IMG/VR virus record: IMGVR_UViG_3300034691_000069
DNA length: 42,612 nt
Origin: a virus
Taxonomy: Duplodnaviria; Heunggongvirae; Uroviricota; Caudoviricetes
Strand: one strand, 5' to 3'
In this document: piece by piece, positions 1,844 to 35,799 of the stretch
How the letters are laid out: each line of letters begins with the position of its first letter
Position numbering within the stretch: the first letter of the stretch is position 1
Notes under the pieces: model-generated
Told to the model about the DNA's origin: nothing
The model's input: the letters and a program-made list of their open reading frames with translations, nothing else
Database searches by the model: none
Program-made: the position numbers and the translations under genes

Positions 1844-2338
1844 TTAGTCGGCCAAACGAAGGAACGCACTGTTCACAACCACGAAGATTTCATCATCCGA
1901 CAACTGAACACGGGAGCCATCAGGCATGCCGACAGTGTTAGCATGCAGAAAAGCTTCCGCATCGTAGGGTGCAATACGGCGACCACGAAGCTCAGAACCA
2001 CCAGCAACAATACGGTCAGTCGCTACAAAGGTCACAACCATACAGGAACCACGCATATCAGGTTCATTGAACTTCGCTGATGGAATATCAGTGATATTAC
2101 TCAATGCCAGATAGAGAGCTTCAAGCTCAGGATCAGTGCCACCTTCAAGCACGATTTCGACTTCGGACTCAGTGCCCCATTGAGTCAGCAGCCTTTGAGC
2201 CGTTTCGGACATTTGGTCTTTGGTTGCCCAGAGACGGTTCAGTGCGTGAAAACCTTGTGGCATGCGGTTACGCCCACCAACATGTTTGTTGAAAATAGTG
2301 TAACGCTTAGAATACACGGGTTGAAGAATAGCAAGCAT
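1844..2338 (-). CDS. putative Pth2-like (peptidyl-tRNA hydrolase II family) protein
   Basis: Motif order Y-x-Q-x-x-HA ... W ... IVLEGG-x4-L-x2-L ... P-x-A-x-F-x-EPD ... VTFV resembles phage Pth2-like proteins; recognised from memory only. Confidence 0.5.
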   Translation of the reverse strand: MLAILQPVYSKRYTIFNKHVGGRNRMPQGFHALNRLWATKDQMSETAQRLLTQWGTESEVEIVLEGGTDPELEALYLALSNITDIPSAKFNEPDMRGSCMVVTFVATDRIVAGGSELRGRRIAPYDAEAFLHANTVGMPDGSRVQLSDDEIFVVVNSAFLRLAD

Positions 2339-9657: not shown

Positions 9658-10062
9658 TTAGGTGGTTGATGTGTTTTTAATCGACAGGTATTGACCCAAG
9701 TAGCTGTAAATTCGTTCTTTCGCAATTGGGTTTTGAGAGTGAACGAAAAAATTGAAGTCTTTAGGCAGAAAGGATGGGTCATCCATATCTTTTTCAACCA
9801 ACCACTTTGCCAGATCAACGCCTTCAAGCTCACGCATAAGGTCATTATCGAAGGAAATGAAGTCAGGGCACCCATTACGTTCAATGTAGTCCTGAGCACC
9901 TTCTACCGTTGCAAACTTGATAATTTCAGTATCTGGTGAATAAGCGATCTTCTCGATCTCATCAGCACCGATCAACGGGTAGTAATAACGTGGATGGCGG
10001 ATCTTGTCGGGATGAAAAGCGTCATCATCCAAGAACAAGAAAATCTTTTTCTTTTCTGTCAT
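9658..10062 (-). CDS. cyclic-phosphate-processing receiver-like domain protein
   Basis: LFLDD...PDFISFDNDL...G-x-D-x-AKWL...VHSQNP motif set typical of this family. Confidence 0.75.
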   Translation of the reverse strand: MTEKKKIFLFLDDDAFHPDKIRHPRYYYPLIGADEIEKIAYSPDTEIIKFATVEGAQDYIERNGCPDFISFDNDLMRELEGVDLAKWLVEKDMDDPSFLPKDFNFFVHSQNPIAKERIYSYLGQYLSIKNTSTT

Positions 10063-17943: not shown

Positions 17944-18009
17944 AAAAGCACCCCTTTTTGAATAAGGACATTATACTACAAAAAAGGTAAAATAGGAAAT
18001 GAAAAGCAT

Positions 18010-18033
18010 AAAAAAACCACCCGAAGGTGGTCT
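18010..18033 (-). terminator. UUCG terminator of the tRNA/ncRNA operon
   Basis: GACCACC-TTCG-GGTGGTT plus T-run, about 7 nt after the ncRNA CCA. Confidence 0.85.
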
Positions 18034-18039
18034 TGTGTT

Positions 18040-18206
18040 TGGTAGCTGTTGATGGTGTCGAACCACCAAGTTAGGACTATTTCATAAGTCTCAGAGTACG
18101 TGCGGCCTCGTCTGACTTACTATTTCATCTTCACTCTGCCTCCACATCCACGGTCTTTGATGTTTGCACGTATAACACCGCCAACCGATCCAGTTTAGCA
18201 ACAGCC
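18040..18206 (-). ncRNA. 167-nt tRNA/tmRNA-like structured RNA ending in CCA
   Basis: 7-bp acceptor GGCTGTT/AACAGCT + A + CCA; T-arm GGTGG-TTCGACA-CCATC; stemless 14-nt D-loop with GG; about 110-nt insert in place of the anticodon arm. Confidence 0.75.
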
Positions 18207-18220
18207 AGAAATCTTAAATT

Positions 18221-18305
18221 TGGTGCCCAAGGTCGGACTCGAACCGACACTCCTTTCGGAAGCGGATTTTGAATCCGCCGCGTCTACCAATTTCACCACA
18301 TGGGC
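18221..18305 (-). tRNA. tRNA-Leu(CAA), CCA encoded
   Basis: GCGGA-TT-CAA-AA-TCCGC anticodon arm; long variable arm; one U-U mismatch at 6:67. Confidence 0.95.
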
Positions 18306-18328
18306 GTATGTGTTTCTCTACTCTTTAT

Positions 18329-18367
18329 GCGTTGCAGTGTATCAAGGTTTAGACAAGACTGCAACGC
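18329..18367 (-). promoter_or_regulatory. promoter TTGCAG-17-TACACT embedded in a 10-bp inverted repeat
   Basis: GCGTTGCAGT / ACTGCAACGC arms, 19-nt spacer, just upstream of tRNA-Leu(CAA). Confidence 0.65.
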
Positions 18368-18391
18368 TTTTTTCTACATTTTCAATAAAAT

Positions 18392-35175: not shown

Positions 35176-35799
35176 ATGAGTAAAGATATGAAAAAAATAA
35201 GTTTAATGATCTTGCCATTTGCTTTGCTAGGCATAATGGCTAATGCAAACGCAAGTTACCAAGTTATATACGGTGATAAGCAAATTAATGGAGATAACAT
35301 CAAGTTCGTAAGTAAGTGGTTAAATTCTGATCCATTAGTAAGTGAATGGACAAATGTAGGGTCGCCAACAGGTTGTTCTGCATGGACGCCTGACCCAAGT
35401 ACAAAAAATATTGGAGTGGCATTTGAGCAATCAGCTACTGGGTGTACACAAGTGCAAACCAGAACAGTGCAGGAAAGAGAACAAAACAATGTAAGTCATG
35501 AATATAGACCTGTCGGCCCTGTAAAAAATGAAAACAGAACATTGAGTAATCAAACAATAACTAGATCTGCGGTTGGTACTAAATCACCAGAAGAATGTGA
35601 TATTCCAAACTCAACTTGGGTAGCAGGTTCACCGGCTTATTCATTGTTAAATATAACATCAAATGGCGTATTGGTTTATAGTGGTGGCGATTTTGCATCT
35701 ACTCAAAAAGTAGTTGGAGCTTACAAATACACCAAAGGTGTTTTAACCGCAAACTATGGTTCATATACAATAAGTAAAGTTTGTCGCACAGCACTATAA
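35176..35799 (+). CDS. secreted protein (about 207 aa), tandem paralog
   Basis: Colinear with 34517-35140 over the full length. Confidence 0.8.
   Translation: MSKDMKKISLMILPFALLGIMANANASYQVIYGDKQINGDNIKFVSKWLNSDPLVSEWTNVGSPTGCSAWTPDPSTKNIGVAFEQSATGCTQVQTRTVQEREQNNVSHEYRPVGPVKNENRTLSNQTITRSAVGTKSPEECDIPNSTWVAGSPAYSLLNITSNGVLVYSGGDFASTQKVVGAYKYTKGVLTANYGSYTISKVCRTAL

What the first reader, a model, noticed from the sequence alone, without database searches (positions are those of the whole stretch)
18040..18206. 167-nt CCA-ended RNA with a tRNA top half and tmRNA-like features
Seen (minus strand): acceptor GGCUGUU/AACAGCU + A73 + CCA, a canonical T-arm (GGUGG-UUCGACA-CCAUC), a stemless 14-nt D-loop (GCUAAACUGGAUCG) like that of tmRNA, a P2-like helix GUUGG/CUAAC and a 2-nt linker. 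It lies 14 nt after tRNA-Leu(CAA) and about 7 nt before a terminator. The insert has U(-5)A(-4) before GCA AAC, matching the tmRNA resume context, and reads ANIKDRGCGGRVKMK*. AUGAAAUAGU occurs twice (M-K-stop, one 10 nt behind GGAGG). Crossing helices are possible: UACGUGC/GCACGUA, CAGAG/CUCUG, UAAGUC/GACUUA. Against a canonical tmRNA: it is about half the usual size, has no pk1, has G1-U72 rather than the G3-U70 AlaRS determinant, and has no AA degron. Inference: a minimal or repurposed tmRNA, an SmpB/synthetase decoy, or a new tRNA-mimic class.
Basis: partly seen in the sequence, partly recalled or inferred. Interest (0 to 1): 0.85.

Follow-up and report, generated by a model that had tools for sequence, protein, structure and literature searches.

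The report
tRNA-ended folded phage RNA, not tmRNA
A giant phage-like genome carries a conserved 167-base RNA gene with the amino-acid-accepting end of a tRNA but two folded arms where the decoding half should be; it resembles phage T4's unexplained "species 1" RNA rather than the ribosome-rescue RNA tmRNA.

Summary
The feature is real. Window 18040-18206 (minus strand) has a 7-bp acceptor stem, an adjacent canonical T arm, A73 and an encoded CCA. That combination turned up in 1 of 300 shuffles of the window. It lies 14 nt after tRNA-Leu(CAA) and just before an intrinsic terminator.

I found seven further distinct copies in metagenomes, all 167 nt, with no indels, each 14 nt behind a tRNA-Leu (CAA or UAG).
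- The tRNA-like end is almost invariant: 3 of 56 columns vary, against 40 of 111 in the insert.
- The insert folds into two arms supported by compensatory changes.
- The two arm loops are complementary over 7 invariant bases.

The tmRNA reading fails its tests:
- there is no G3-U70;
- the P2-like helix is not conserved and there is no pk1;
- Rfam and ARAGORN give no tmRNA hit;
- changes in the "tag" frame show no coding pattern;
- a 290-kb relative encodes no SmpB.

My best reading is a non-decoding tRNA mimic, cut out by tRNA-processing enzymes. It is built like T4 RNA C but is not detectably homologous to it. Its function is unknown; a decoy or cofactor for a tRNA-binding protein is my inference. 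I obtained no RNA-level data.

This scan found the same RNA earlier on other DNA (e1-5420259, e1-5372268) and read it the same way.

The parts
18336..18364 (-). Promoter-like site: TTGCAG, 17 nt, TACACT, about 30 nt upstream of tRNA-Leu(CAA)
   Evidence: Read. It matches 8 of 12 consensus positions, below the scan's cut-off of 9. The relative L001 has TTGTAC, 17 nt, TATACT at the same place. Inferred, not shown.
18221..18305 (-). tRNA-Leu(CAA), first gene of the transcription unit
   Evidence: ARAGORN; Rfam tRNA, 52.7 bits.
18207..18220 (-). 14-nt AU-rich spacer (AAUUUAAGAUUUCU) between the tRNA and the element
   Evidence: The length is the same and the sequence nearly the same in the relatives where the upstream flank was read: consensus AWUUUAAGWUUUMU.
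18040..18206 (-). The whole 167-nt tRNA-ended RNA gene
   Evidence: Eight distinct homologues, all 167 nt without indels. One copy per genome. No ORF of 40 aa or more overlaps it.
18200..18206 (-). Acceptor stem, 5' strand (RNA positions 1-7)
   Evidence: Seven pairs with 18044-18050, invariant in 8 of 8 sequences.
18188..18199 (-). D-loop-like linker GCUAAACUGGAU (positions 8-19), carrying the GG that could contact the T loop
   Evidence: 11 of 12 columns invariant. No conserved D stem.
18151..18187 (-). Arm 1 (positions 20-56): helices 20-22/54-56 and 28-33/43-48, with a 9-nt loop AUACGUGCA
   Evidence: Pair 33-43 switches between U-A and C-G, four sequences each. Pairs 29-47 and 22-54 show compatible one-sided changes.
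18166..18172 (-). Loop sequence UACGUGC of arm 1 (positions 35-41), complementary to 18097-18103
   Evidence: Seven-bp complementarity; 13 of the 14 columns are invariant, against 40% variable in the rest of the insert (Fisher p = 0.017). Duplex energy about -11 kcal/mol. There is no covariation, so the pairing is inferred.
18137..18150 (-). Linker UGGAUGUGGAGGCA (positions 57-70), 11 of 14 columns invariant. Positions 69-73 can alternatively pair with 111-115
   Evidence: Pair 70-114 is A-U, G-U or G-C, but 71-113 is broken in two sequences.
18068..18136 (-). Arm 2 (positions 71-139): helices 71-74/136-139, 78-80/130-132 and 87-93/117-123, a symmetric GAAAUA/GAAAUA internal loop, and a 23-nt terminal loop
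   Evidence: Pairs 88-122 (U-A/C-G) and 91-119 (G-C/A-U) covary. Five further one-sided compatible changes. Folding with only the tRNA end enforced recovers this arm in 5 of 7 sequences.
18097..18103 (-). Loop sequence GCACGUA of arm 2 (positions 104-110), partner of 18166-18172
   Evidence: Invariant in 8 of 8 sequences.
18051..18067 (-). T arm GGUGG-UUCGACA-CCAUC (positions 140-156)
   Evidence: The stem is invariant. The loop varies only at columns 150 and 151, which correspond to tRNA positions 59 and 60, the variable T-loop positions.
18040..18050 (-). Acceptor 3' strand AACAGCU, discriminator A73 and encoded CCA (positions 157-167)
   Evidence: Invariant in 8 of 8 sequences.
18013..18034 (-). 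Intrinsic terminator: 9-bp stem, UUCG loop, U run
   Evidence: The same hairpin follows the element in the six relatives where the downstream flank was read.

Best explanation
This is the gene for a stable, non-decoding tRNA mimic.

Maturation (inferred). It is transcribed together with tRNA-Leu from a sigma-70-like promoter to an intrinsic terminator. The 12-bp acceptor/T-arm stack plus ACCA is the shape that RNase P and the 3'-trimming enzymes recognise. They should therefore release a discrete 167-nt RNA with a mature CCA end.

Fold (supported by comparison). In place of the D, anticodon and variable arms it has two long arms. Their terminal loops can pair with each other over 7 bases, which would give a compact body. 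With no anticodon arm it cannot read codons.

Role (inferred only). The tRNA-like end most likely gives stability and access to proteins that recognise the tRNA elbow and CCA end. The RNA would act during infection as a decoy or cofactor for such a protein.

It is built like T4 'species 1' RNA (RNA C) and is not a tmRNA. About 0.8 of my confidence rests on 'processed tRNA-ended structured RNA, not tmRNA'. Far less, about 0.3, rests on the decoy or cofactor role.
For: - The tRNA top half is far beyond chance: 1 of 300 shuffles.
- Eight distinct copies, all 167 nt, always 14 nt after a tRNA-Leu; the same terminator follows in every copy whose downstream flank was read.
- The tRNA-like end varies at 3 of 56 columns, against 40 of 111 in the insert (p = 9e-6). 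The T loop varies only at tRNA positions 59 and 60.
- DNA contigs from other habitats keep the element region at about 98% identity while the adjacent gene is about 89%.
- In the two-arm model 97.7% of cells are paired, three pairs covary, and no shuffle reaches the observed covariation score. Slid controls give 32-44% paired.
- The fold with the tRNA end enforced lies within 0-4.6 kcal/mol of the unconstrained MFE.
- The kissing-loop columns are significantly conserved.
- T4 RNA C has a canonical T arm and an acceptor-like stem and is the last gene of the T4 tRNA cluster. Its role is still unknown (PMC3014915, PMC9697503).
Against: - I obtained no RNA-level evidence. The one 'RNA' run I laid is probably DNA and consists only of contigs. 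Processing, RNA ends and abundance are therefore inferred.
- The acceptor and T stems never vary, so they carry no covariation evidence.
- The eight sequences are 86-99% identical and phylogenetically related, so the shuffle statistics overstate the support.
- The kissing interaction is invariant and therefore unproven.
- Positions 69-73 have two mutually exclusive partners, each with some support.
- Nothing tested bears directly on function.
- The MFE z-score of the single sequence is unremarkable at -0.83.
Confidence: 0.6

Rival explanations
1. Miniature or repurposed tmRNA. The RNA is aminoacylated, enters stalled ribosomes with SmpB, and its internal frame (GCA ... stop) is translated as a tag.
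For: - tRNA-like end with an unpaired D loop.
- The frame starting at GCA/GCG is open in all 8 copies and ends with UAG or UAA at the same codon in 7 of them; the eighth stops one codon later.
- Huge phages are reported to carry tmRNAs and SmpB (PMC7162821).
Against: - The G-U pair is at 1:72, not 3:70, so the major AlaRS determinant is missing.
- The P2-like helix is broken in relatives: pair 23-136 forms in only 3 of 7. There is no pk1.
- No hit to RF00023 or any clan member at E <= 10 or in the relative. ARAGORN -m finds nothing even at an 80% threshold.
- Variable columns fall 7/4/6 on codon positions 1/2/3, so there is no coding constraint. The tag ends in VKMK, not a hydrophobic degron.
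- The 'resume codon' lies in a hairpin loop whose bases are better explained as a loop-loop pairing partner.
- With no indels in the family, an open 15-codon frame is expected by chance.
- No SmpB gene in the 290-kb relative.
Confidence: 0.05
2. Aminoacylatable tRNA mimic. It would be charged by a synthetase that ignores the anticodon. LeuRS is the only candidate given A73 and the absence of G3-U70. Its role would be either to sequester the enzyme or to deliver the amino acid outside normal decoding.
For: - A73 and an encoded CCA are invariant.
- It is always linked to a tRNA-Leu gene.
- The model R1 scores tRNA-Leu genes best among tRNAs in T4 and in the window, with the D-loop motif AAAYUGG shared.
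- From my own knowledge, not checked here: bacterial LeuRS uses A73 and the D/T elbow rather than the anticodon or the long variable arm.
Against: - No conserved D stem.
- The end shows no special similarity to any of the phage's tRNA-Leu genes.
- The R1 scores on tRNAs are weak, 12-15 bits.
- Nothing here tests charging.
Confidence: 0.12
3. Cis-acting processing or stability module. The element exists to protect or direct maturation of the upstream tRNA-Leu, acting as a structured 3' cap before the terminator, and has no role of its own.
For: - Fixed 14-nt spacer and constant position between the tRNA-Leu and the terminator.
- The whole unit of tRNA-Leu plus element is present or absent together in related genomes.
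Against: - A second tRNA-Leu(CAA) and many tRNA-Leu(UAA) genes in the relative do without it.
- An invariant ACCA end, a T loop that varies only at positions 59 and 60, and covarying arms with conserved loops are more than a protective hairpin needs.
Confidence: 0.1
4. Base-pairing regulatory RNA. The conserved loops (UACGUGC, GCACGUA) or the GGAGG-containing linker pair with phage or host RNAs. The tRNA end serves only for processing.
For: The loops and the linker are more conserved than the rest of the insert.
Against: - The two loops are complementary to each other, which favours an internal contact.
- GGAGG becomes GGAAG in two relatives.
- I did not search for targets.
Confidence: 0.08
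5. Decayed tRNA gene, or a tRNA with an intron or insertion in the anticodon region.
For: With relaxed settings ARAGORN can force a 'tRNA-His(atg) with 72-nt intron' onto it.
Against: - That call needs an ad hoc anticodon stem and a long extra arm.
- The insert is conserved in length (no indels), covaries, and is under purifying selection.
- It is too short for a group I intron, and no Rfam intron hit was found.
Confidence: 0.03

Closest known systems
Bacteriophage T4 species 1 RNA (RNA C, rnaC; NC_000866 70908-71046, 139 nt) and its neighbour RNA D
   Same: - A stable RNA gene at the promoter-distal end of a phage tRNA transcription unit.
- A canonical T arm (CCGGG-UUCGAAU-CCCGG) abuts an acceptor-like stem formed by the two ends.
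- A long structured insert replaces the decoding half.
- Function unknown after decades (PMC3014915, PMC9697503).
   Different: - No detectable homology: the covariance model R1 scores 6.6 bits, E = 0.12.
- The T4 acceptor has two U-U mismatches and no encoded CCA.
- Different length and different insert architecture; I saw no loop-loop complementarity in RNA C.
- This RNA comes from giant, uncultivated, phage-like genomes of peat and freshwater.
tmRNA (SsrA; Rfam RF00023 and clan CL00001)
   Same: - The two RNA ends form an acceptor stem.
- T arm, unpaired D loop containing GGAU, and a CCA end.
- A structured insert with tertiary pairings.
- An internal frame that begins with GCA.
   Different: - Half the size.
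- G-U at 1:72 instead of 3:70.
- No conserved P2, no pk1-pk4.
- No degron and no coding constraint.
- No model hit.
Bacterial Y RNAs with tRNA-like modules (YrlA)
   Same: A non-coding RNA that mimics the tRNA elbow (T arm plus D-loop contact).
   Different: - From my own knowledge: in YrlA the RNA ends form the Ro-binding stem and the tRNA-like part is internal. Here the ends form the acceptor stem with CCA.
- No Ro (TROVE) or RtcB gene in the 290-kb relative.
- No Rfam hit at E <= 10.
tRNA-like structures at the 3' ends of plant RNA viruses, and mascRNA-type tRNA-like RNAs
   Same: tRNA mimicry serves for processing and/or recognition by tRNA enzymes without decoding.
   Different: These belong to different hosts and genome types. 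Viral tRNA-like structures build the acceptor with a pseudoknot. mascRNA is a small cloverleaf. None has two kissing arms. This comparison is from my own knowledge only and was not tested.

Membership tests
tmRNA | tRNA-like domain: acceptor stem formed by the 5' and 3' ends, T arm, CCA | tested here: met
tmRNA | G3-U70 wobble pair, the alanine identity element | tested here: not met
   Pairs are G1-U72, G2-C71 and C3-G70, invariant in 8 of 8 sequences.
tmRNA | D loop without a stem, as in the tmRNA tRNA-like domain | tested here: inconclusive
   No conserved D stem, and a GGAU motif is present. Its likeness to the tmRNA D loop rests on my memory of tmRNA sequences.
tmRNA | Long P2 helix joining the tRNA-like domain to the body | tested here: not met
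   For 22-26/133-137, 80% of cells pair, there is no covariation, and the 23-136 pair forms in only 3 of 7 sequences.
tmRNA | Pseudoknot pk1 upstream of the resume codon, and further pseudoknots downstream | tested here: not met
   The 'resume' GCA sits in the loop of a simple hairpin, arm 1. The only tertiary pairings are loop-loop or 69-73/111-115.
tmRNA | Tag reading frame under coding constraint, ending in a proteolysis signal | tested here: not met
   The frame is open in 8 of 8 sequences, but changes fall 7/4/6 on codon positions 1/2/3. The tail is VKMK(Q) or VKME.
tmRNA | Recognised by the tmRNA covariance models or by ARAGORN | tested here: not met
tmRNA | Binds SmpB and is alanylated | not testable with these tools
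   No SmpB gene in the 290-kb relative, but a host SmpB could serve.
tRNA | Cloverleaf with D arm and anticodon arm | tested here: not met
   No hit to RF00005 at E <= 10. ARAGORN calls it only at an 85% threshold with a forced 72-nt intron. No conserved D stem.
YrlA / bacterial Y RNA | Ro-binding stem formed by the RNA ends; gene next to rsr (Ro) | tested here: not met
   The ends form an acceptor stem. No TROVE or RtcB in the relative. No Rfam hit.
T4 RNA C-like tRNA-cluster stable RNAs (an architectural kind, not a curated family) | Located at the distal end of a phage tRNA transcription unit, before the terminator | tested here: met
   Position behind the tRNA-Leu seen in all 8 copies; the terminator seen in the 7 whose downstream flank was read.
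T4 RNA C-like tRNA-cluster stable RNAs (an architectural kind, not a curated family) | T arm abutting an acceptor-like stem made by the two ends, with a structured insert instead of the decoding half | tested here: met
   for T4; for this RNA.
T4 RNA C-like tRNA-cluster stable RNAs (an architectural kind, not a curated family) | Sequence or structure homology to T4 rnaC | tested here: not met
   R1 scores 6.6 bits, E = 0.12, on rnaC.
T4 RNA C-like tRNA-cluster stable RNAs (an architectural kind, not a curated family) | Accumulates as a discrete, stable, processed RNA | not testable with these tools
   Only contigs of DNA-like runs were available. An earlier scan report (e1-5420259) says 'expressed', but I did not check that.

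The most novel reading that the evidence does not exclude
The RNA is charged at its invariant ACCA end by a synthetase that ignores anticodons (LeuRS-type identity: A73 plus the elbow). It then enters ribosomes as a half-size, alanine-independent analogue of tmRNA. Its internal frame (GCA ... UAG/UAA, kept open in all eight copies) is used to finish stalled proteins with a non-degron tail. That could be useful to a phage whose relatives carry amber-suppressor tRNAs.
Probability: 0.04. Interest if true: 0.9.

Novelty: new variant of a known kind. Interest (0 to 1): 0.55.

Why it matters
T4's tRNA-like stable RNAs have had no known function for about fifty years and were thought to be a peculiarity of T-even phages. 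An unrelated RNA with the same design now appears in giant phage-like genomes from peat, freshwater and wastewater, with a nearly frozen tRNA end and covarying arms. This suggests that phages repeatedly find a use for "a tRNA end on a folded body". The new RNA offers a second, independent system for working out what such RNAs do. Candidate roles include interference with tRNA-binding enzymes, with toxins that attack the CCA end, and with the translation apparatus. It also shows that tRNA and tmRNA finders miss this kind of gene.

Tried and rejected
- **Rfam:** the gathering and E <= 10 scans of the region found only tRNA-Leu and noise.
- **ARAGORN:** tmRNA mode at lowered thresholds found nothing.
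- **GenBank phages:** blastn of the region hit only tRNA-Leu. Megablast of 20 kb found no relatives.
- **No whole genome** is held for the window.
- **IMG/VR pattern scans:** a 23-mer gave 0 hits. A 15-mer gave 20 hits, of which only one contig is real. A 17-mer hit the same contig only.
- **GTDB genome scan:** That scan was effectively wasted and is incomplete.
- **Read laying on four runs:** all are contigs and the 'RNA' run is probably DNA, so it says nothing about expression, RNA ends or strand.
the P2 helix and a D stem are not conserved.
- **Origin from a phage tRNA:** no close tRNA was found.
- **Homology to T4 rnaC:** 6.6 bits.
- **Families sought in the 290-kb relative and not found:** SmpB, TROVE, RtcB, RVT_1 and Terminase_6N.
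- **SLOG-gene relatives at 50-58% identity:** they have no tRNAs or element nearby.
- **Systematic search for covarying column pairs:** swamped by phylogenetic correlation in so few sequences.

Full report
**1. What is there**

On the minus strand, window 18206 to 18040 reads as a 167-nt unit. Positions below count from 18206 as 1.
- Its first seven bases (GGCUGUU) pair with bases 157-163 (AACAGCU). The first pair is G-U.
- The 3' strand of this stem is preceded, without a gap, by a five-pair stem with the loop UUCGACA. That is a textbook T arm.
- It is followed by A and CCA.

tRNA-Leu(CAA) ends 14 nt upstream. An intrinsic terminator starts about 5 nt downstream. A weak sigma-70-like promoter (TTGCAG, 17 nt, TACACT) lies upstream of the tRNA and is kept in a relative.

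I scanned both strands of the window for a 7-bp acceptor, an abutting 5-bp T stem with a TTCRA loop, one base and CCA. Only this element and tRNA-Leu(UAA) matched. The same scan scored once in 300 dinucleotide shuffles. No ORF of 40 aa or more overlaps the element. The observation therefore stands.

**2. Standard finders**

- ARAGORN at default settings and Rfam at gathering thresholds report only the two tRNA-Leu genes.
- An Rfam scan of the 381-nt region at E <= 10 gives no tRNA, tmRNA, mt-tmRNA or Y-RNA match on the element.
- ARAGORN's tmRNA search finds nothing even at an 80% threshold.
- With introns allowed and an 85% threshold, ARAGORN calls exactly these 167 nt as a 'tRNA with a 72-nt intron'. 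That confirms the ends but not a real anticodon arm.

**3. Relatives**

The window is 38% GC and packed with small minus-strand genes. It carries a thymidine kinase, a cell-wall hydrolase, a SLOG (cpYpsA) protein and a cyclic-phosphate receiver domain. No whole genome is held for it and GenBank phages hold no close relative.

Seven further distinct copies came from three routes:
- the SLOG gene led to IMG/VR contig 3300024308_000302 (290 kb, 32% GC, 35 tRNAs), which carries a copy;
- a gapped pattern scan of metagenome contigs added two more distinct copies;
- looking up contigs that encode SLOG homologues added four.

All eight distinct sequences are 167 nt with no insertion or deletion, and 86-99% identical to the window's copy.
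- Each lies 14 nt behind a tRNA-Leu: CAA in five copies and UAG in three.
- The spacer is nearly the same wherever the upstream flank was read.
- The same terminator follows in the window and in the six relatives whose downstream flank was read.

There is one copy in the window and one in the 290-kb relative. About half of the related SLOG neighbourhoods lack the whole tRNA-Leu-plus-element unit. The unit therefore comes and goes as a cassette.

**4. Selection**

Variable columns are very unevenly spread. Three of 56 columns vary in the tRNA-like end (positions 1-22 and 134-167), against 40 of 111 in the insert (Fisher p = 9e-6). Two of the three variable columns in the end are T-loop positions 59 and 60, which also vary among real tRNAs.

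Contigs from food, wastewater and other runs cover the element region (18002-18247) with 5 differences in 246 nt. The adjacent SLOG gene shows 40 differences in 378 nt in the same run. This is a gene under purifying selection, not a decayed tRNA.

**5. Fold of the insert**

The model that best fits the eight sequences is a four-way junction:
- the acceptor stem;
- arm 1, positions 20-56;
- arm 2, positions 71-139;
- the T arm.

Arm 1 has one compensatory pair: 33-43 is U-A in four sequences and C-G in four.

Arm 2 has two compensatory pairs, 88-122 (U-A/C-G) and 91-119 (G-C/A-U), plus five one-sided compatible changes. Its middle is a symmetric internal loop, GAAAUA opposite GAAAUA.

Overall 97.7% of cells pair, against 32-44% when partners are slid. 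No shuffle reaches the observed covariation score. The sequences are related, however, so these numbers overstate the support.

With only the acceptor and T arm enforced, ViennaRNA recovers arm 2 in five of seven sequences. The energies are within 0-4.6 kcal/mol of the unconstrained optimum.

The loop of arm 1 (UACGUGC) is the exact complement of seven bases in the loop of arm 2 (GCACGUA).
- Thirteen of these 14 columns never vary, against 40% variable in the rest of the insert (p = 0.017).
- The duplex is worth about -11 kcal/mol.

Because the loops never vary, this kissing contact is inferred, not shown.

A competing pairing, 69-73 with 111-115, also has support. Pair 70-114 is A-U, G-U or G-C, with C114 appearing twice and only beside G70. 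Its neighbour 71-113 is broken in two sequences, whereas 71-139 tolerates that change. I cannot decide between these two pairings; they may alternate.

**6. The tmRNA reading**

The features that define tmRNA were tested one by one.
- The G-U pair is at 1:72, not 3:70.
Its 23-136 pair forms in 3 of 7 sequences and nothing compensates. A D stem fares no better.
- There is no pk1. The proposed resume codon lies in the arm 1 loop, among the bases that match the arm 2 loop.
- The frame from GCA/GCG is open in all eight copies. It stops at the same codon in seven and one codon later in the eighth. With no indels and 86-99% identity this is expected.
- Substitutions fall 7, 4 and 6 times on codon positions 1, 2 and 3, so nothing suggests a coding constraint.
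- The peptide ends in VKMK, not in a hydrophobic degron.
- The 290-kb relative encodes no SmpB, although a host SmpB could in principle serve.

The RNA is therefore not a member of the tmRNA family. Evidence that it works like one is limited to the tRNA-like end.

**7. Other comparisons**

No Ro (TROVE), RtcB or reverse transcriptase gene is present in the relative. In addition, the RNA ends here form an acceptor stem rather than a Ro-binding stem. A YrlA-type Y RNA is therefore not supported.

The end is not a recent copy of any phage tRNA.

The closest architectural match is T4 species 1 RNA (RNA C). It is the last gene of the T4 tRNA cluster, and it has a canonical T arm abutting an imperfect acceptor-like stem and a structured insert. 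Its function is still unknown (PMC3014915, PMC9697503). My covariance model gives it only 6.6 bits. This is analogy, not demonstrable homology.

**8. How it most likely works**

Shown by sequence comparison:
- a conserved, single-copy gene;
- a frozen tRNA-like end;
- two covarying arms;
- fixed linkage to a tRNA-Leu and, where the flank was read, a terminator.

Inferred from established knowledge of tRNA maturation: the 12-bp acceptor/T stack with ACCA is the substrate shape for RNase P and the 3' exonucleases. The unit should therefore be cut out as a discrete 167-nt RNA.

Inferred only: the body is compacted by the loop-loop contact, and the RNA engages a protein that recognises the tRNA elbow and CCA end, as decoy or cofactor.

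Charging by an anticodon-blind synthetase is a live rival. Given A73 and no G3-U70, only LeuRS comes to mind. I could not test this.

**9. Standing of the finding**

The same RNA was noted earlier in this scan on three other genomes. Two follow-up reports (e1-5420259, e1-5372268) reached the same conclusion. I rebuilt the evidence independently here: homologues, covariation, tmRNA tests and the T4 comparison. The 'two arms that kiss' description did steer me from a pseudoknot model towards the two-arm model, which I then tested. Their statement that the RNA is expressed was not checked here.

I found no published description. Rfam has no family for it, and the literature searches returned only T4 RNA C/D and generic phage tRNA-like predictions.

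Noticed in passing
G001 (IMGVR_UViG_3300024308_000302) 179840-179914 and 180849-180923, minus strand: Two tRNAs with anticodon CUA, which ARAGORN labels 'tRNA-Pyl'. They are amber suppressors and hint that these genomes recode TAG. The same record has 13 tRNA-Leu(UAA), 6 tRNA(CAU) and 4 tRNA-Arg(UCU).
   Followed up: no
G001 114546-114651 (minus); L028:1501-1606: A second tRNA-ended oddity of 106 nt. It has a perfect acceptor, a normal D arm, a T arm, ACCA, and a roughly 35-nt surplus in the anticodon/variable region. Default ARAGORN does not call it; the relaxed mode calls 'tRNA-Gly with 23-nt intron'. The Rfam tmRNA model gives 14.6 bits.
   Followed up: partly
G001 129761-129837 (minus); L032:1504-1577: A 77-nt borderline tRNA (RF00005 29.5 bits, at the cut-off) with an oversized anticodon loop. 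It has the same T stem (GGUGG/CCAUC) as the element and a near-identical terminator. Default ARAGORN misses it. It was the second-best hit of model R1 at 20 bits.
   Followed up: partly
G001 35401-35477 and 163041-163117; L023:1669-1746; L181:1899-1977: tRNA-like genes that ARAGORN reports with 2-, 4- or 4-base 'anticodons' (ga, tttg, gaaa), that is, irregular anticodon loops. They recur in several relatives.
   Followed up: no
window 18097-18368, as seen in runs X11 and X19: Contigs from two other samples join 18096 to 18369 through 24 unrelated bases. A related genome therefore keeps only the 3' part of the element and lacks its 5' half, the tRNA-Leu and the promoter (tables 5 and 5c). Together with relatives that lack the whole unit (L052, L053, L178-L180, L182-L185), this shows the cassette is gained and lost.
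   Followed up: partly
Contigs behind L024, L025, L053 and L187: Relatives of this 'huge phage' region lie on contigs of 1.54, 0.68, 1.92 and 1.85 Mb. IMG/VR treats 290 kb of the 1.54-Mb contig as a provirus. No Terminase_6N was found in the 290 kb. Whether the replicon is a giant prophage in a small bacterial genome or something larger than any known phage is open.
   Followed up: no
window 9658-10062 (minus): A 134-aa protein with a cyclic-phosphate processing receiver domain (cREC_REC, E = 7e-16), a domain linked to RNA-repair systems. An earlier scan note reports two Rnl1 RNA ligases further along the same genome.
   Followed up: no
window 1844-2338 (minus): The protein another first-reader note called 'Pth2-like' has no Pfam match at E <= 0.01.
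   Followed up: partly
L001:4151-4368: In this relative, tRNA-Leu(CAA) and tRNA-Leu(UAG) are separated by 218 nt. The stretch holds a strong promoter (TTGACG, 17 nt, TATAAT) and a roughly 150-nt leader of unknown role ahead of the tRNA-Leu(UAG)-element unit.
   Followed up: no
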